A stretch of DNA of 37,059 nt from a virus (taxonomy: Duplodnaviria; Heunggongvirae; Uroviricota; Caudoviricetes). The DNA lies in IMG/VR virus record IMGVR_UViG_2657245588_000006, one strand, 5' to 3'. Position 1 is the first letter of the stretch. Each line of letters opens with the position of its first letter. The translations under genes were made by a program, and so were the position numbers. The notes under the pieces are model-generated. The model searched no databases, was not told the DNA's origin, and saw only the letters and a program-made list of their open reading frames with translations. This document shows positions 10,661-37,059 of this stretch, in pieces.

Positions 10661-11564
10661 TCGCCCTCCTGAGAGACGGGATTTACGTGCATCCAGTGCA
10701 TCACGCATGACGGTGATCGCATCGGTGCTGTTAACAAGTTCATCAGCCAGTCCGGCATCAATGGCCTCCTGACCGCTGTACACTGCAGCCTCGGTATCCA
10801 GCACAGCCTGCACGGACAGGCCGGTATATGCCGACACCTTCTGCGCAAACATCTGGCGGGTTGCGTCCATCCGGGACTGCAGTGTCTCCCGGACGTCATC
10901 CGGAAGATGGCTGTAGGGGTTGCCATCCACCTTATGGCTGCCGCTGTAAATCAGAGTGATTTCCACACCCTGTTTCTCCAGCGCAGCACCGTAATTACTG
11001 TGAGCCATCATGACGCCGATGGAGCCTGTCCGGGCGGTCTGCGTGACCAGACGCCGGGAGGCGGCACTGGCAAGCAGCTGACCTGCACTGCAGTTCATGT
11101 CGTTGGCCAGCGCCCATACCGGTTTTATGTCACGCACACGGGCGATGATGTCAGCGCAGTCAAATGCCCCCGCCACCATCCCGCCGGGCGTGTCCATATC
11201 GAGCAGAATGCCGTCCACCATCGGATCGCTGGCAGCCTGTTGCAGACGGGCGATAATGCCGTTGTAACCGGTCATCCCCGAGTACGGCTGCAGCGCCCGC
11301 GTCCGGCTGACCAGCGTGCCGGACACCGGCAGCACGGCGATGCCGTTCATGACCTGATAACTGCGGGCCTGTCGTGGTCCGTCATCATCACCGGATAATG
11401 CCAGCGTCGCGAGTGCCTCCTGGGCAGTCAGGCTGTCGCCGGACACCGCATCCATCAGGCGGCTGATCCCAAGCTGGCCTGCAAACGCACAAAAGAAAAC
11501 CCGCGCATAGGCGGGTTCAAGCATCAGCGGCTCATTAAAAGCCATGCTGGCAATATGCGGGAGA

Positions 11565-34478: not shown

Positions 34479-35435
34479 TTATTTACCCTTATTATACTCT
34501 TCAGTAATCTTATTCATGGATGATATATATTTATCCAGCCCACCATAGTTGGCTATCATTCGAAATGAATTACGGTACTCTGCCATTTTCACATCATGAT
34601 TAGTAATTCCACACCAGCCACAAACTTTATTTTCCATGTTTAAAGGCTCATAACATTTTTTACATTGCCTTGATGCAGGTATTATATTGCCATTAATAAA
34701 TTGGTGTGATTTGAGATTTTGAGATAAAAGAAATGGTGTAGTTGTTGTTTTTCCTATTACCATTTCGAAATATCTACATTTAGCCTTTTTAGCTAAAGAT
34801 TGAATTTTCTGCTTTAATAAATCATTTGATTTGTGCCCAACTATAACTCCAGTTATACAATTAATCGGTACCGGAAGGAGCATAAGATTGTCATTCAGTT
34901 TAGTAAGTGCTTTCTCATTAATTATTACGCGACGTTCCTGCTCATAACTCCAGCAAGTTTGTTTTGTCAAATATGCGGCTGTCATTATACAGGATTGTAG
35001 CCAGTAGATATAACGAGGTTTACAGATATGAAATGCTCTCGCCAGAATGTCTTCAATACCTGTATCTGGAGAATCTTTATATTCAACATCTGCTATTGAA
35101 CTATGATCCTGGAAGCCGATTTCATCCAAATACTTTTTAAACTTCTCCTCATTAATCTCTATTACAAAACCAGAAGAATTACCTGCATAATGTGCCCACA
35201 TAGGTGGTATCACAGGGCTTTTCGTAAAACAAGTTGCTGGTTGTTTTGTAACCATGCCAATCATTTCATTGTAAAATGCTAACTCATCAGAACCGCGATT
35301 AAAATCAATAGTAAGGAAAAACTCATAGGGATCATTATATTCATGTAAATGAGAGAATTTTATTCCTATATGTGTTTCATCCATCATCAATTTATCAATT
35401 ATATCCGCTCCCATAAACTTATACAAATTGGTCAT
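34479..35435 (-). CDS. DUF2971-like protein with C-terminal CxxC...CxxC zinc ribbon (function unknown; family assignment tentative)
   Basis: ATG at 35435 with AGGAG RBS gives 318 aa; N-terminal LYKFMGADIIDKLMMDETHIGIKFSHLHEYNDPYEF pattern; C-terminal CKKCYEPLNMENKVCGWCG; strongly AT-rich. Confidence 0.5.
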   Translation of the reverse strand: MTNLYKFMGADIIDKLMMDETHIGIKFSHLHEYNDPYEFFLTIDFNRGSDELAFYNEMIGMVTKQPATCFTKSPVIPPMWAHYAGNSSGFVIEINEEKFKKYLDEIGFQDHSSIADVEYKDSPDTGIEDILARAFHICKPRYIYWLQSCIMTAAYLTKQTCWSYEQERRVIINEKALTKLNDNLMLLPVPINCITGVIVGHKSNDLLKQKIQSLAKKAKCRYFEMVIGKTTTTPFLLSQNLKSHQFINGNIIPASRQCKKCYEPLNMENKVCGWCGITNHDVKMAEYRNSFRMIANYGGLDKYISSMNKITEEYNKGK

Positions 35436-35480
35436 ATACAACTCCTTTTTTATAAAATAACATTTTAAATCATATGATTA

Positions 35481-35882
35481 TGGAGGCACAAAATCCAGTA
35501 ATTAGTTTTCAAGCCGGTTGTGATGTAGTTCGAGGACAAACTGAAACGTATTATTGATAACAGTCGCGATAACGTTGCCTGCCCGTATATCGTTCACCGT
35601 ATACCGAGCGTAATAACAAACGCAGTAAAGAGGTATCCGCACCTGCCTATCTTAGCCATACTTTTCATTGCCCCGTGATTCGTTAGGCTTGTGTAATAAT
35701 TTGACGATGGAGCTGCGCCCCCACATTCCACAAAATACGCGCACTAGCTGCATTTTGTTTGATAAACAGGGAGTAGACCACAAGGGCTCATAGCCCACAG
35801 CGACGCGAAATCAACGAAAATTTATACGCGGAACCATATGATTGGGTAATGCTTCCGCACGGTGAAATTAAATACAATGCAT
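35481..35882 (+). pseudogene. Diverged 3' remnant of a second tyrosine-integrase gene
   Basis: DNA alignable by eye to the int 3' end at about 33945..34341, ending at the equivalent stop codon; no intact upstream ORF. Confidence 0.6.
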
Positions 35883-35886
35883 AATA

Positions 35887-35913
35887 AAATTGGCCTCAAA
35901 TGAGGCCAATTTT
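35887..35913. terminator. Inverted-repeat hairpin between convergent transcription units
   Basis: AAAATTGGCCTCA aa TGAGGCCAATTTT with A/T-rich flanks on both sides. Confidence 0.4.
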
Positions 35914-35918
35914 GGGGA

Positions 35919-36302
35919 TTAGGACGCTTTAGACTTGGTCATATTAGCGCAACGCTGGATTAATTTCTCTGCAGTCTTAATCGCGGTGCTTGATTGGGTT
36001 GGCGTAATAGTGTCGTTAAGTCTGTAATCACAAACTATTCTCTGATCCTTAAGCGATTGAAGAGCATACCCCAAACCAATTAAGTCTCTTTTTTCAAAAG
36101 GTTCGTTACCCTTCCAAGCATCGTTAACAAGATAGTCAATGAGGCCTTGGTGACTTTCTTTCGGCCCCATGGTCAAACACGGAAGTACGTGGTGATAAGC
36201 ACCATAATACGCACGTGCGACAGCGTTTCTGTAACCAATTTCGTCGTTACGCTTTTCACAATCTTTTGCGAAAGCGATAAAATCGGAACTATTAACTGGC
36301 AC
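35919..36302 (-). CDS. Hypothetical protein, second gene of a two-gene operon
   Basis: Track ORF starts at a TTG at 36353; GTG at 36302 has GGAGG 9 nt upstream and overlaps the upstream stop by 11 nt; contains an R-x6-H element RAYYGAYH. Confidence 0.45.
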   Translation of the reverse strand: MPVNSSDFIAFAKDCEKRNDEIGYRNAVARAYYGAYHHVLPCLTMGPKESHQGLIDYLVNDAWKGNEPFEKRDLIGLGYALQSLKDQRIVCDYRLNDTITPTQSSTAIKTAEKLIQRCANMTKSKAS

Positions 36303-37059
36303 GCGCAGGTTCCTCCAAACGCCCTTCAAACCATACGCTGAAGGGTTTTCCAATCAAACTTTCATTTTCTGCAAGAGAAAATGCTATATCCAAGTTCATA
36401 TCAGAGAGAACATCAGAATCTTCAGTATTAACTGCCATGACATATGATGACGTACGCTCTTCAGGGATAGAGCAGAAAGACATAGCAACAGGACTAACTT
36501 TATGGTCAGCCATGATATCCACTATGCGGTTTGCAATATCCTGTAGTTCTTCATCAGTAATTCCAGTTGCACTTTTGAAGGTCGTGGATTGGGCCAGTGC
36601 TGTGGCTGCGAGGTGCTTAACCAATTCAGCCTCCTTTTCATCTACCATACTTATCAATCTCTCAGCATAGTAGAGCGCTTTGTCAATACGCCCCAAGAAC
36701 AAGTTAGCTTCCCATGCATGGGACAGCATCGTAGGGGAGTTATAACGTTCAACTAATCGATTTACCACTTGTTCAACTTCACGGAAGCTGCCGTAATCGT
36801 TGAGATAAACTACATAATTTTGAGCAATGATCAGGTTGTTATGCTTCAATGCTTCTTCAAAGAATGCAACTGCAGTATCTTTACGCCCAAAAGCACCATT
36901 AGCCAACGCTTTGAGATAGTCCTCAGATGCGCTGTCGCGCAACTTTTCTATATCTCTGATATAACGAAAATATTGCATTTCGGATATCGTATTCCGAGCC
37001 GCAAGAATATCGATTAATTCACTGCTGATTTCGTTCGCTTTTAGCGCCGGCTGTGGCAT
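36292..37059 (-). CDS. Hypothetical largely helical protein, first gene of the operon; N-terminus may lie outside the window
   Basis: 255 codons open from the window edge (an ATG sits at 37059..37057) to the stop at 36292; no family recognised. Confidence 0.5.
   Translation of the reverse strand: MPQPALKANEISSELIDILAARNTISEMQYFRYIRDIEKLRDSASEDYLKALANGAFGRKDTAVAFFEEALKHNNLIIAQNYVVYLNDYGSFREVEQVVNRLVERYNSPTMLSHAWEANLFLGRIDKALYYAERLISMVDEKEAELVKHLAATALAQSTTFKSATGITDEELQDIANRIVDIMADHKVSPVAMSFCSIPEERTSSYVMAVNTEDSDVLSDMNLDIAFSLAENESLIGKPFSVWFEGRLEEPARAS

What the first reader, a model, noticed from the sequence alone, without database searches (positions are those of the whole stretch)
35919..37059. 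Two-gene operon of unknown function at the window edge beyond the prophage
Two overlapping minus-strand genes: an upstream gene of at least 255 aa, helical with TPR-like character, and a downstream gene of about 127 aa with a GGAGG RBS and GTG start overlapping the upstream stop by 11 nt. The operon ends at an inverted-repeat hairpin shared with the convergent integrase remnant. The small protein carries an R-x6-H element (RAYYGAYH) reminiscent of HEPN-type RNase motifs, though it sits unusually far N-terminal. Position next to an integration hotspot makes a toxin-antitoxin or defence module plausible; I do not recognise either protein.
Basis: inference. Interest (0 to 1): 0.55.

Follow-up and report, generated by a model that had tools for sequence, protein, structure and literature searches.

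The report
Phage-borne TPR–HEPN two-gene cassette
The two genes are a complete, conserved cassette that temperate phages carry as optional cargo: a probable HEPN-type RNase toxin and a repeat-protein partner that likely restrains it, an uncharacterised candidate toxin-antitoxin or anti-phage module.

Summary
Both minus-strand genes are real, complete and under purifying selection. The 255-aa gene is not truncated: its ATG is the last triplet of the window.

The 127-aa protein is a HEPN domain of the HEPN-T/UPF0332 type, by profile, fold and motifs. The counterpart of the catalytic Rx4-6H is R88-x3-D92-Y93 plus invariant H51.

The 255-aa partner is a TPR-like array plus a small α/β domain. It has no invariant polar residues, so it is probably a binder, not an enzyme.

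The pair is co-inherited and translationally coupled in about 60 loci examined. It always lies in temperate-phage DNA, in at least six different cargo slots.

In this window it lies inside the tRNA-Pro-bounded insertion, between a decayed integrase and attR. It is leftover cargo of an older prophage, not host DNA beyond the prophage.

Two E. coli type I-E CRISPR spacers match the two genes perfectly.

PADLOC 2.0 has no match, Pfam and NCBIfam nothing above their cut-offs, and PHROGs lists both as "unknown function".

Best reading: a toxin-antitoxin-like or abortive-infection module, with a HEPN RNase gated by the TPR partner instead of the usual nucleotidyltransferase. RNase activity, toxicity and defence are all inferred.

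The parts
36292..37059 (-). Partner gene, 255 aa, complete. Residues 1-165 (36565-37059) form a TPR-like helical array; residues 169-246 (36322-36555) form a small α-β-β-α-β domain carrying the family's best-conserved motif, DMNxxLA.
35919..36302 (-). HEPN-T/UPF0332-type HEPN protein, 127 aa, GTG start; putative RNase toxin or effector.
   Evidence: Profile versus PDB: 9xbd E 6.7e-5, 2hsb E 0.02. Model pLDDT 91.9. Foldseek top hits are HEPN. phrog_5176.
36312..36316 (-). GGAGG Shine-Dalgarno of the HEPN gene, inside the end of the partner gene. The 11-nt overlap (36292-36302) implies translational coupling.
   Evidence: Conserved in Citrobacter and Enterobacter. Junctions of -20 to +2 nt in all relatives.
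36024..36041 (-). Codons R88-I-V-C-D92-Y93, the counterpart of the HEPN Rx4-6H site, with D in place of H and an adjacent Tyr.
   Evidence: Invariant and visible in every distant member. Aligns to R..SDY of PDB 9xbd. The HEPN-T description is in Anantharaman 2013.
36150..36152 (-). Codon H51, the invariant His 'elsewhere' that accompanies the D-for-H variant.
36192..36215 (-).
   Evidence: R30 is replaced by L in L050.
35886..35913 (.). A-tract / 12-bp hairpin / T-tract between the convergent HEPN gene and the integrase remnant; likely a bidirectional terminator.
   Evidence: dG -17.5, z -4.4. Conserved in C. freundii. Not called by the consensus scanner, probably because the stem absorbs the T run.
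35484..35885 (+). Decayed 3' remnant of a tyrosine integrase gene (about the last 120-135 codons, several frameshifts). It marks the older prophage to which the cassette belonged.
   Evidence: PGAP pseudogene. tblastn in three frames. Colinear with the intact integrase of C. freundii.
36449..36483 (-). Protospacer (36449-36480) plus ATG PAM (36481-36483), matched 32/32 by a spacer in E. coli type I-E CRISPR arrays.
36033..36067 (-). Protospacer (36033-36064) plus ATG PAM (36065-36067), matched 32/32 by a second E. coli CRISPR spacer. It covers the codons of the R88 motif.

Best explanation
The operon is a self-contained two-gene cassette that temperate phages carry as optional cargo (a 'moron').

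The 3' gene encodes a small HEPN-T/UPF0332-type HEPN domain. I predict it is a metal-independent RNase that acts as a dimer. The predicted site is built from R88, D92 and Y93, plus H51 and probably H37, at one end of the helical bundle.

The 5' gene encodes a non-enzymatic partner: a TPR-like array plus a small α/β domain. It is made first and in step with the HEPN protein through translational coupling. I propose that it binds the HEPN protein and keeps it inactive, taking the place that the MNT nucleotidyltransferase antitoxin holds in classical HEPN-MNT modules.

In a lysogen the complex would sit idle. Loss or titration of the partner would free the RNase, stop translation and abort the infection. 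The most likely trigger is a protein of a superinfecting phage bound by the fast-evolving TPR surface. The same release would punish loss of the element.

In this window the cassette is what remains of an older prophage at tRNA-Pro, kept intact while its integrase decayed.

Shown: gene structure, HEPN identity, conserved polar site, strict pairing, phage-cargo distribution, purifying selection. Inferred: RNase activity, toxicity, neutralisation by the partner, trigger, defence phenotype.
For: HEPN identity:
- The family profile hits PDB HEPN/UPF0332 chains, with all three motifs aligned.
- The high-confidence model's best PDB matches are HEPN domains: AF0298, SSO P95883, TT1696, sacsin, Csm6, HepT, AbiV.
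- Seven of 10 diverse members give sub-threshold PF05168 hits. Several sources name relatives UPF0332 or HEPN.

Active-site-like conservation:
- E21, R25, Y32, Y33, P47, H51, R88, D92 and Y93 are invariant down to 27% identity.
- This matches the HEPN-T variant described in Anantharaman 2013: D replaces H, with a conserved H elsewhere and a conserved C-terminal Tyr.

Partner is a binder:
- TPR fold plus α/β domain.
- No invariant residue across 40 diverse members.
- No nucleotidyltransferase or DNA-binding domain.

Linkage:
- The HEPN gene follows the partner gene on the same strand, with a junction of -20 to +2 nt, in all loci, whichever protein was used to retrieve them.
- Identities of the two proteins correlate at r = 0.95.
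- The partner always diverges faster: mean 43% identity against 60% for the HEPN protein.

Gene order: the 5' position is that of the MNT antitoxin.

Mobile phage cargo, found in these slots:
- Between integrase and attP.
- Q to lysis.
- Lysis to terminase.
- nin region.
- Tail module.
- A P2-like phage.
- Also 19 IMG/VR contigs, two BFVD structural matches, and both proteins in PHROGs.

Other support:
- Both genes are intact (dN/dS about 0.1) beside a heavily decayed integrase.
- E. coli CRISPR spacers with correct PAMs target both genes.
- The pair is rare and accessory in E. coli, in 52 of 5426 complete genomes.
- A functional precedent exists: the prophage-encoded HEPN defence system Tha (PMC11087260).
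Against: - There are no experimental data for this family. Nothing was found in the held literature, and PADLOC 2.0 has no match.
- The canonical His of Rx4-6H is absent (D92). Some HEPN-T relatives, such as sacsin HEPN and NTase-fused HEPN domains, are thought to be non-catalytic nucleotide binders. The conserved site could therefore bind a ligand rather than cleave RNA.
- Pfam HEPN is below its gathering score (13 versus 22 bits), and Foldseek E-values are modest (best 5.8e-3).
- The partner lacks the DNA-binding domain usual in type II antitoxins.
- Binding between the two proteins was not modelled.
- One phage (YP3) has a solo HEPN homologue without a partner, which argues against obligatory toxicity.
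- The promoter scan was uninformative.
Confidence: 0.5

Rival explanations
1. It is a pure addiction toxin-antitoxin module. The HEPN toxin and a labile TPR antitoxin stabilise the prophage or island by post-segregational killing, with no role in phage defence.
For: The antitoxin-first, overlapping gene order is typical of type II and type VII TA systems. The cassette stays intact next to a decayed integrase. The pair is strictly co-inherited.
Against: A 255-aa TPR protein without a DNA-binding domain is an unusual antitoxin. The rapidly diverging repeat surface suits recognition of variable foreign ligands better than simple neutralisation. The cassette sits in the slots where phages carry lysogenic-conversion and exclusion genes, next to other defence candidates: PDC-S31, ApeA, methyltransferases.
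Confidence: 0.2
2. The HEPN-like protein is non-catalytic, acting as a nucleotide or ligand binder or an adaptor. The pair then serves the phage in another way, for example as a counter-defence or regulatory module.
For: D replaces the catalytic His, and several HEPN-T relatives are considered inactive or nucleotide-binding. A solo homologue exists in a phage tail module. The pair is not detected by defence HMM libraries.
Against: The Arg, the compensating His51 and the Asp-Tyr are invariant over wide divergence, the pattern Anantharaman et al. associate with retained activity. The own-terminator cassette in lysogenic-conversion slots is not typical of early anti-defence genes.
Confidence: 0.15
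3. It is an ordinary host (housekeeping) operon that merely neighbours an integration hotspot.
For: None beyond its position at the window edge.
Against: The operon lies inside the tRNA-Pro/attR-bounded insertion. Only 52 of 5426 complete E. coli genomes carry it. Every homologue examined is in phage DNA. CRISPR spacers target it.
Confidence: 0.01

Closest known systems
[quoted passage not shown]
   Same: A small standalone HEPN protein is encoded 3' of, and overlapping, its partner gene. An Arg-centred motif has an adjacent conserved Tyr. These modules are mobile-element borne. HepT structures are among the fold matches.
   Different: The partner is not a minimal nucleotidyltransferase: it has no NTase domain, motif or fold. 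Neutralisation by AMPylation of the Tyr is therefore not expected. The motif is R-x3-D-Y plus a distal His, not Rx4HxY.
HEPN-T / UPF0332 (PF05168-type) HEPN domains, e.g. AF0298 (PDB 2hsb) and PDB 9xbd/9xbc
   Same: These are the best sequence-profile and fold matches. They share the motifs RAYYxxF/Y, H, and R-x3-DY, and they have the same size, about 125 aa.
   Different: The match is below Pfam's gathering score. This clade is phage-borne and paired with a TPR-α/β protein. In every locus sampled here the partner was that protein and never an NTase.
HEPN families found in operons with TPR or Sel1 proteins (LA2681 family; AbiU2 with a Sel1-repeat gene), Anantharaman et al. 2013
   Same: A HEPN effector is genomically coupled to a TPR-class repeat protein in conflict systems.
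   Different: Those are different HEPN families with canonical Rx4-6H. No sequence relationship to them was tested here, and the partner's C-terminal α/β domain is specific to this family.
Tha, the prophage-encoded HEPN anti-phage system of Staphylococcus aureus (PMC11087260)
   Same: It is a prophage-carried HEPN effector that protects the lysogen and is activated by proteins of incoming phages (abstract).
   Different: Tha is reported as 'Tha', without a named partner (abstract). Its host range and HEPN family differ, and homology was not tested. It is a functional analogy only.
TPR-sensor immune proteins (Avs/STAND NTPases with TPR sensors; Pfam TPR-S)
   Same: A repeat array may act as the ligand-sensing surface. 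There is a weak TPR-S hit, E 1e-3.
   Different: There is no NTPase domain. Sensor and effector are separate small proteins.

Membership tests
HEPN superfamily | All-α up-down helical bundle of the HEPN fold | tested here: met
   The model has pLDDT 91.9 and five helices. Nine of the ten best Foldseek PDB hits are HEPN-domain entries (probability 1.0 for 2hsb and 2q00), although the best E-value is only 5.8e-3.
HEPN superfamily | Canonical Rx4-6H catalytic motif | tested here: not met
The site reads R88-I-V-C-D92-Y93 with no His. This is the D-for-H variant that Anantharaman 2013 describes for HEPN-T, with a conserved His elsewhere, here H51.
Pfam PF05168 (HEPN) / UPF0332 | Score above the Pfam gathering threshold (22 bits) | tested here: not met
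   The window protein scores 12.8-13.2 bits. Seven of 10 diverse members hit below threshold, best E 4.5e-4. A few homologues carry a precomputed PF05168 hit or a UPF0332 label.
Pfam PF05168 (HEPN) / UPF0332 | Sequence-profile relationship to solved UPF0332/HEPN structures, with family motifs aligned | tested here: met
   hmmsearch of the family profile gives 9xbd_A E 6.7e-5, 9xbc_A 3.9e-4 and 2hsb_A (UPF0332 AF0298) 0.021. RAYY, H and R..SDY are aligned.
Type VII HepT/MntA (HEPN-MNT) toxin-antitoxin | Partner is a minimal nucleotidyltransferase (MNT) that AMPylates the HEPN Tyr | tested here: not met
   The partner has no NTase hit in Pfam or NCBIfam. Its fold is TPR plus α-β-β-α-β. It has no invariant catalytic residues.
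Type VII HepT/MntA (HEPN-MNT) toxin-antitoxin | Rx4HxY motif in the toxin | tested here: not met
   The motif is R-x3-D-Y. The Tyr is present, the His is absent.
Type II-like toxin-antitoxin module | Bicistronic operon, antitoxin gene first, overlapping or abutting the toxin gene | tested here: met
   The overlap here is 11 nt, and junctions are -20 to +2 nt in all relatives.
Type II-like toxin-antitoxin module | Antitoxin with a DNA-binding domain for autoregulation | tested here: not met
   The partner has no HTH, RHH or AbrB hit or fold.
Type II-like toxin-antitoxin module | Toxin arrests growth; cognate antitoxin neutralises it by binding | not testable with these tools
   This needs expression, toxicity and interaction assays. 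No multimer prediction was available.
Catalogued anti-phage defence systems (PADLOC-DB 2.0.0) | Match to a model of a known or candidate defence protein | tested here: not met
   Neither protein has a hit at E <= 1, whereas the neighbouring DUF2971 gene hits PDC-S31 at 4e-22. The accessions and motifs are absent from the held DefensePredictor supplements, some of which were cut when stored.
TPR repeat proteins | TPR sequence repeats above Pfam thresholds, or a TPR fold | tested here: inconclusive
Phage accessory cargo ('moron') | Self-contained unit, present or absent among related phages, at different genome positions, with its own terminator | tested here: met
   There are six or more insertion slots in unrelated temperate phages. 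The same cassette has different flanking lysis and terminase modules. An own promoter was not demonstrated.

The most novel reading that the evidence does not exclude
The pair defines a previously uncatalogued, widespread prophage-encoded immune system. In it, a fast-evolving TPR-α/β protein directly senses a protein of an incoming phage and releases a D-variant HEPN-T RNase that aborts infection. That would be a HEPN toxin gated by a repeat-protein sensor instead of by AMPylation. The HEPN side of the family has about 1900 clusters at 90% identity, spread across Enterobacterales, Vibrio and Burkholderia phages.
Probability: 0.4. Interest if true: 0.7.

Novelty: new variant of a known kind. 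Interest (0 to 1): 0.55.

Why it matters
HEPN toxins are normally discussed with their MNT (AMPylating) antitoxins, or as fusions in CRISPR and Abi effectors. Here a whole clade of HEPN-T proteins has a different, non-enzymatic partner family with no Pfam or NCBIfam match above those libraries' cut-offs. The HEPN side counts about 1900 clusters at 90% identity. The partner side gave 158 matches among 50%-identity representatives, most of them full-length 240-290-aa proteins.

The clade travels exclusively as phage cargo through Enterobacterales, including very common Klebsiella prophages. If it is a defence or exclusion system, it is missed by the one defence library available here (PADLOC 2.0, 2023). 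It would add a simple two-protein sensor-effector design and a second way of restraining a HEPN RNase.

It also illustrates that the slot between integrase and attP in lambdoid prophages is an exchange site for such cargo. In this window the current prophage carries a DUF2971/PDC-S31 gene in the same slot.

If the protein turns out to be non-toxic, the finding reduces to two conserved phage genes of unknown function.

Tried and rejected
- R-x6-H as the catalytic motif. Rejected.
- Gene truncated by the window edge. Rejected.
- Promoter and terminator consensus scan of the region. Counts were no better than in shuffles. Only conserved upstream blocks could be noted.
- Rfam scan of the locus. 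Only chance-level hits: a histone stem-loop model on the hairpin, and HPnc0260.
- Literature searches for the accessions, UPF0332+HEPN, TPR-HEPN and PDB 9xbd/9xbc. Nothing relevant. The DefensePredictor paper and its held supplements contain neither accessions nor sequence motifs, but some files are truncated. Rousset 2022 does not mention such a pair.
- Pattern scan of genome contigs. Only 2 loci returned, limited by the exact peptide patterns.
- The afdb50 fold library was unavailable.
- Burkholderia and Chronis-type partners looked unrelated with the narrow profile A2. With the broad profile A5 they are clearly homologous.
- Search for a decayed partner gene upstream of the solo HEPN of Yersinia phage YP3. 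None found.
- Mutual exclusion of CRISPR spacer and cassette. Observed, but the expected overlap by chance is only about 0.2 genomes, so it is uninformative.
Full report
**Observation.** The window is E. coli chromosome, 100% identical to many complete genomes, for example O25b:H4 NZ_CP015085. Two minus-strand ORFs occupy 36292..37059 (255 aa, ATG) and 35919..36302 (127 aa, GTG). RefSeq annotates them with exactly these ends, as WP_001136067.1 and WP_001145023.1.

In the full record an in-frame TAG lies 21 nt upstream of the 255-aa gene's ATG, and an AGGTGA Shine-Dalgarno precedes it. The upstream gene is therefore complete, and the window simply ends on its start codon.

The GTG of the small gene is preceded by GGAGG at a 9-nt spacing. 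The two genes overlap by 11 nt. Homologues have ATG at the aligned position and the same MPVxS N-terminus.

A 12-bp hairpin flanked by A and T runs (35886-35913) follows the small gene. Its RNA dG is -17.5 kcal/mol with z = -4.4. The hairpin is shared with a convergent, multiply frameshifted integrase remnant.

Both genes are under purifying selection: dN/dS is 0.10 and 0.08 against a 93-95% identical relative, and synonymous sites are saturated in wider comparisons.

**The small protein.** Pfam gives only a sub-threshold HEPN hit (E 0.13). A profile of 27 homologues hits PDB chains named "HEPN domain-containing protein" (9xbd E 6.7e-5, 9xbc) and the UPF0332 protein AF0298 (2hsb, E 0.02). Three motifs are aligned: RAYYxxF/Y, H, and R-x3-DY.

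The AlphaFold model (pLDDT 91.9) is a five-helix bundle. Its best PDB matches are almost all HEPN domains: AF0298, SSO P95883, TT1696, sacsin HEPN, Csm6, HepT and AbiV. The E-values are modest.

- In 27 close homologues R25, N26, R30, Y32, Y33, Y36, H37, P47, H51, R88, D92 and Y93 are invariant.
- With phage homologues down to 27% identity, the invariant set is E21, R25, R30, Y32, Y33, P47, H51, R88, D92 and Y93.
- In a still more distant member R30 is Leu, while the rest is kept.

Anantharaman et al. [quoted passage not shown] They also note a conserved C-terminal Tyr.

The catalytic-site counterpart is R88-x3-D92-Y93 together with H51.

From the helix topology (helices 21-42, 51-66, 71-93), H37, H51 and R88-Y93 all sit near the same end of the bundle. 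This is an inference; no coordinates were available to me.

An exhaustive profile search of 1.84 billion representatives finds 158 proteins. Most are 240-290 aa and match end to end, so this is a small, uniform, stand-alone family without fusions.

Across 40 diverse members no column is invariant. The best-kept features are a DMNxxLA helix, an NYLxYL repeat motif and a C-terminal W-F/Y. This is the pattern of a binding protein, not an enzyme. It carries no nucleotidyltransferase or DNA-binding domain.

**Linkage.** In all 43 loci first collected, the HEPN ORF directly follows the partner ORF on the same strand. This held whether the loci were retrieved with the small protein or with the large one.

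Distant partner representatives (20-26% identity) again have a 113-132-aa gene abutting them. Each of these is a HEPN homologue with the same motifs.

Conversely, distant HEPN relatives each have a 244-262-aa upstream gene:
- Klebsiella, Salmonella and Yersinia prophages.
- Isolated Klebsiella, Vibrio and Burkholderia phages.

Those upstream genes that were tested are full-length homologues of the partner family: hhalign probability is 95-99.5%. The gene junction is always between -20 and +2 nt.

Over 22 distinct pairs the identities of the two proteins correlate at r = 0.95. The partner is always the more divergent, at a mean of 43% against 60%.

The only exception seen is a solo, C-terminally short HEPN homologue in the tail module of Yersinia phage YP3.

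**Context.** In NZ_CP015085 an intact tRNA-Pro next to yejM is followed by the prophage. The layout then runs: its integrase, a DUF2971 gene, the integrase remnant, the cassette, about 450 nt, and a 55-nt exact repeat of the tRNA-Pro 3' end. After that come yejO and narP. The cassette is therefore inside the att-bounded insertion.

In Citrobacter, Enterobacter, Pseudocitrobacter and several IMG/VR proviruses the same cassette is convergent with an intact integrase of the same yfdP/DUF2303-type lambdoid prophage. The tRNA-Pro repeat sits at the same 445-457-nt distance upstream. This includes relatives 93-95% identical to the window's pair (L030-L032). So the cassette is normal cargo between integrase and attP in that phage lineage.

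In this window its integrase has decayed and a second prophage of the same integrase family is adjacent. That prophage carries a DUF2971/PDC-S31 gene in the equivalent slot.

Elsewhere the cassette sits in other slots:
- Between Q and the lysis genes.
- Between lysis genes and terminase, in three phages with different lysis and terminase modules.
- In the nin region.
- In tail modules.
- In a P2-like Vibrio phage.

Both proteins belong to PHROG families of unknown function. Two gut siphovirus proteins in BFVD share the full partner fold.

Only 52 of 5426 complete E. coli genomes carry the pair, always on the chromosome.

**CRISPR evidence.** About 20 other E. coli genomes match the operon only by 33 nt, at 100% identity, inside the type I-E array between ygcE and queE.
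- One spacer matches 36449-36480 in the partner gene.
- Another matches 36033-36064, the HEPN gene's R88 codons.
- Both protospacers are preceded by ATG, which from my own knowledge is a functional I-E PAM.
- In strain STEC719 the neighbouring spacer resembles this phage family's integrase (28 of 31 positions).

This independently marks the cassette as part of an invader that E. coli has sampled.

**Mechanism.** The arrangement mirrors HEPN-MNT modules, where the 5' gene is the antitoxin and the 3' HEPN is an RNase toxin. Here the enzymatic MNT is replaced by a repeat protein.

I propose that the partner binds and silences the HEPN RNase. I further propose that disturbance of the partner frees the RNase, giving abortive infection or post-segregational killing. 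The most plausible disturbance is capture of its fast-evolving TPR surface by a protein of a superinfecting phage.

The prophage-encoded HEPN system Tha is a functional precedent. HEPN-TPR operons in other HEPN families were noted in 2013.

Shown here:
- the gene structure;
- the HEPN identity;
- the conserved polar site;
- the non-enzymatic nature of the partner;
- the strict pairing;
- the phage-cargo distribution.

Activity, toxicity, neutralisation and trigger are all inferred.

**Caveats:**
- The canonical His is missing.
- Some HEPN-T relatives are non-catalytic.
- The two proteins' interaction was not modelled.
- A solo homologue exists.
- No defence library (PADLOC 2.0) or paper in the held collection covers the pair.

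The module is a new variant of a known kind, a HEPN toxin module with a novel TPR-α/β partner in place of the MNT. It is widespread in temperate phages of Enterobacterales and beyond, and it is worth an experimental test.

Noticed in passing
window 36449-36483 and 36033-36067; L057 2501-2533; L058 2501-2533: Two different spacers in E. coli type I-E CRISPR arrays (the ygcE-queE array; e.g. strains W, LY180, B-766, STEC719, ES6) match the two genes 32/32, each with an ATG PAM. In STEC719 the adjacent spacer resembles this phage family's integrase (28/31). About 20 of 5426 complete genomes carry such a spacer, and none of them carries the cassette.
   Followed up: yes
window 34479-35441 (-): The gene between the present prophage's integrase and the integrase remnant is a DUF2971 protein that matches the PADLOC candidate defence family PDC-S31 (E 4e-22). 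It occupies the same integrase-adjacent cargo slot as the TPR-HEPN cassette does in related prophages.
   Followed up: partly
L001 about 10845-10870 (about 190 nt upstream of the partner gene's ATG, outside the window): A conserved inverted repeat, TGTGGATAA-n6/7-TTATCCACA (two DnaA-box-like 9-mers), lies between the att core and the cassette. It is kept in E. coli, Citrobacter, Enterobacter and IMG/VR proviruses. Further conserved blocks (TTGGAA, TGTAACCTT, AAGATTGC..GCAAC) lie closer to the start codon. Their function is unknown; they could be a promoter, an operator or attP arm sites.
   Followed up: partly
window 37057-37059; L026, L027, L029, L030, L033, L042, L043 position 1: The window, like seven IMG/VR provirus contigs, ends exactly on the start codon of the partner gene. 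Provirus-boundary calling therefore seems to cut at this gene and to miss the about 450 nt up to the real att repeat.
   Followed up: partly
L017 1179-1210 and 4756-4787: One Citrobacter freundii genome has two copies of the tRNA-Pro att repeat, with DinI- and HtrL-like genes between them. This indicates tandem or successive integrations at this site, as in the E. coli window.
   Followed up: no
L044 3507-3866 (Yersinia phage YP3): A solo, C-terminally shorter homologue of the HEPN protein sits between duplicated baseplate-like genes and a baseplate wedge gene. No partner gene or remnant is present.
   Followed up: partly
L006-L008 1-1589; L002-L005 6681-7727; L053 1207-1746: In other prophages the cassette sits near further conflict-type cargo: an ApeA-like HEPN protein (Serratia), N6/N4 DNA methyltransferases (Yersinia, Serratia) and a SocA/Panacea-domain protein.
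   Followed up: no
L059-L062 (Klebsiella prophages, nin region): The Chronis-type variant of the pair (244 aa + 140 aa) is very common in Klebsiella. The HEPN protein P0230 is indexed in 806 blocks of the assembly collection.
   Followed up: partly
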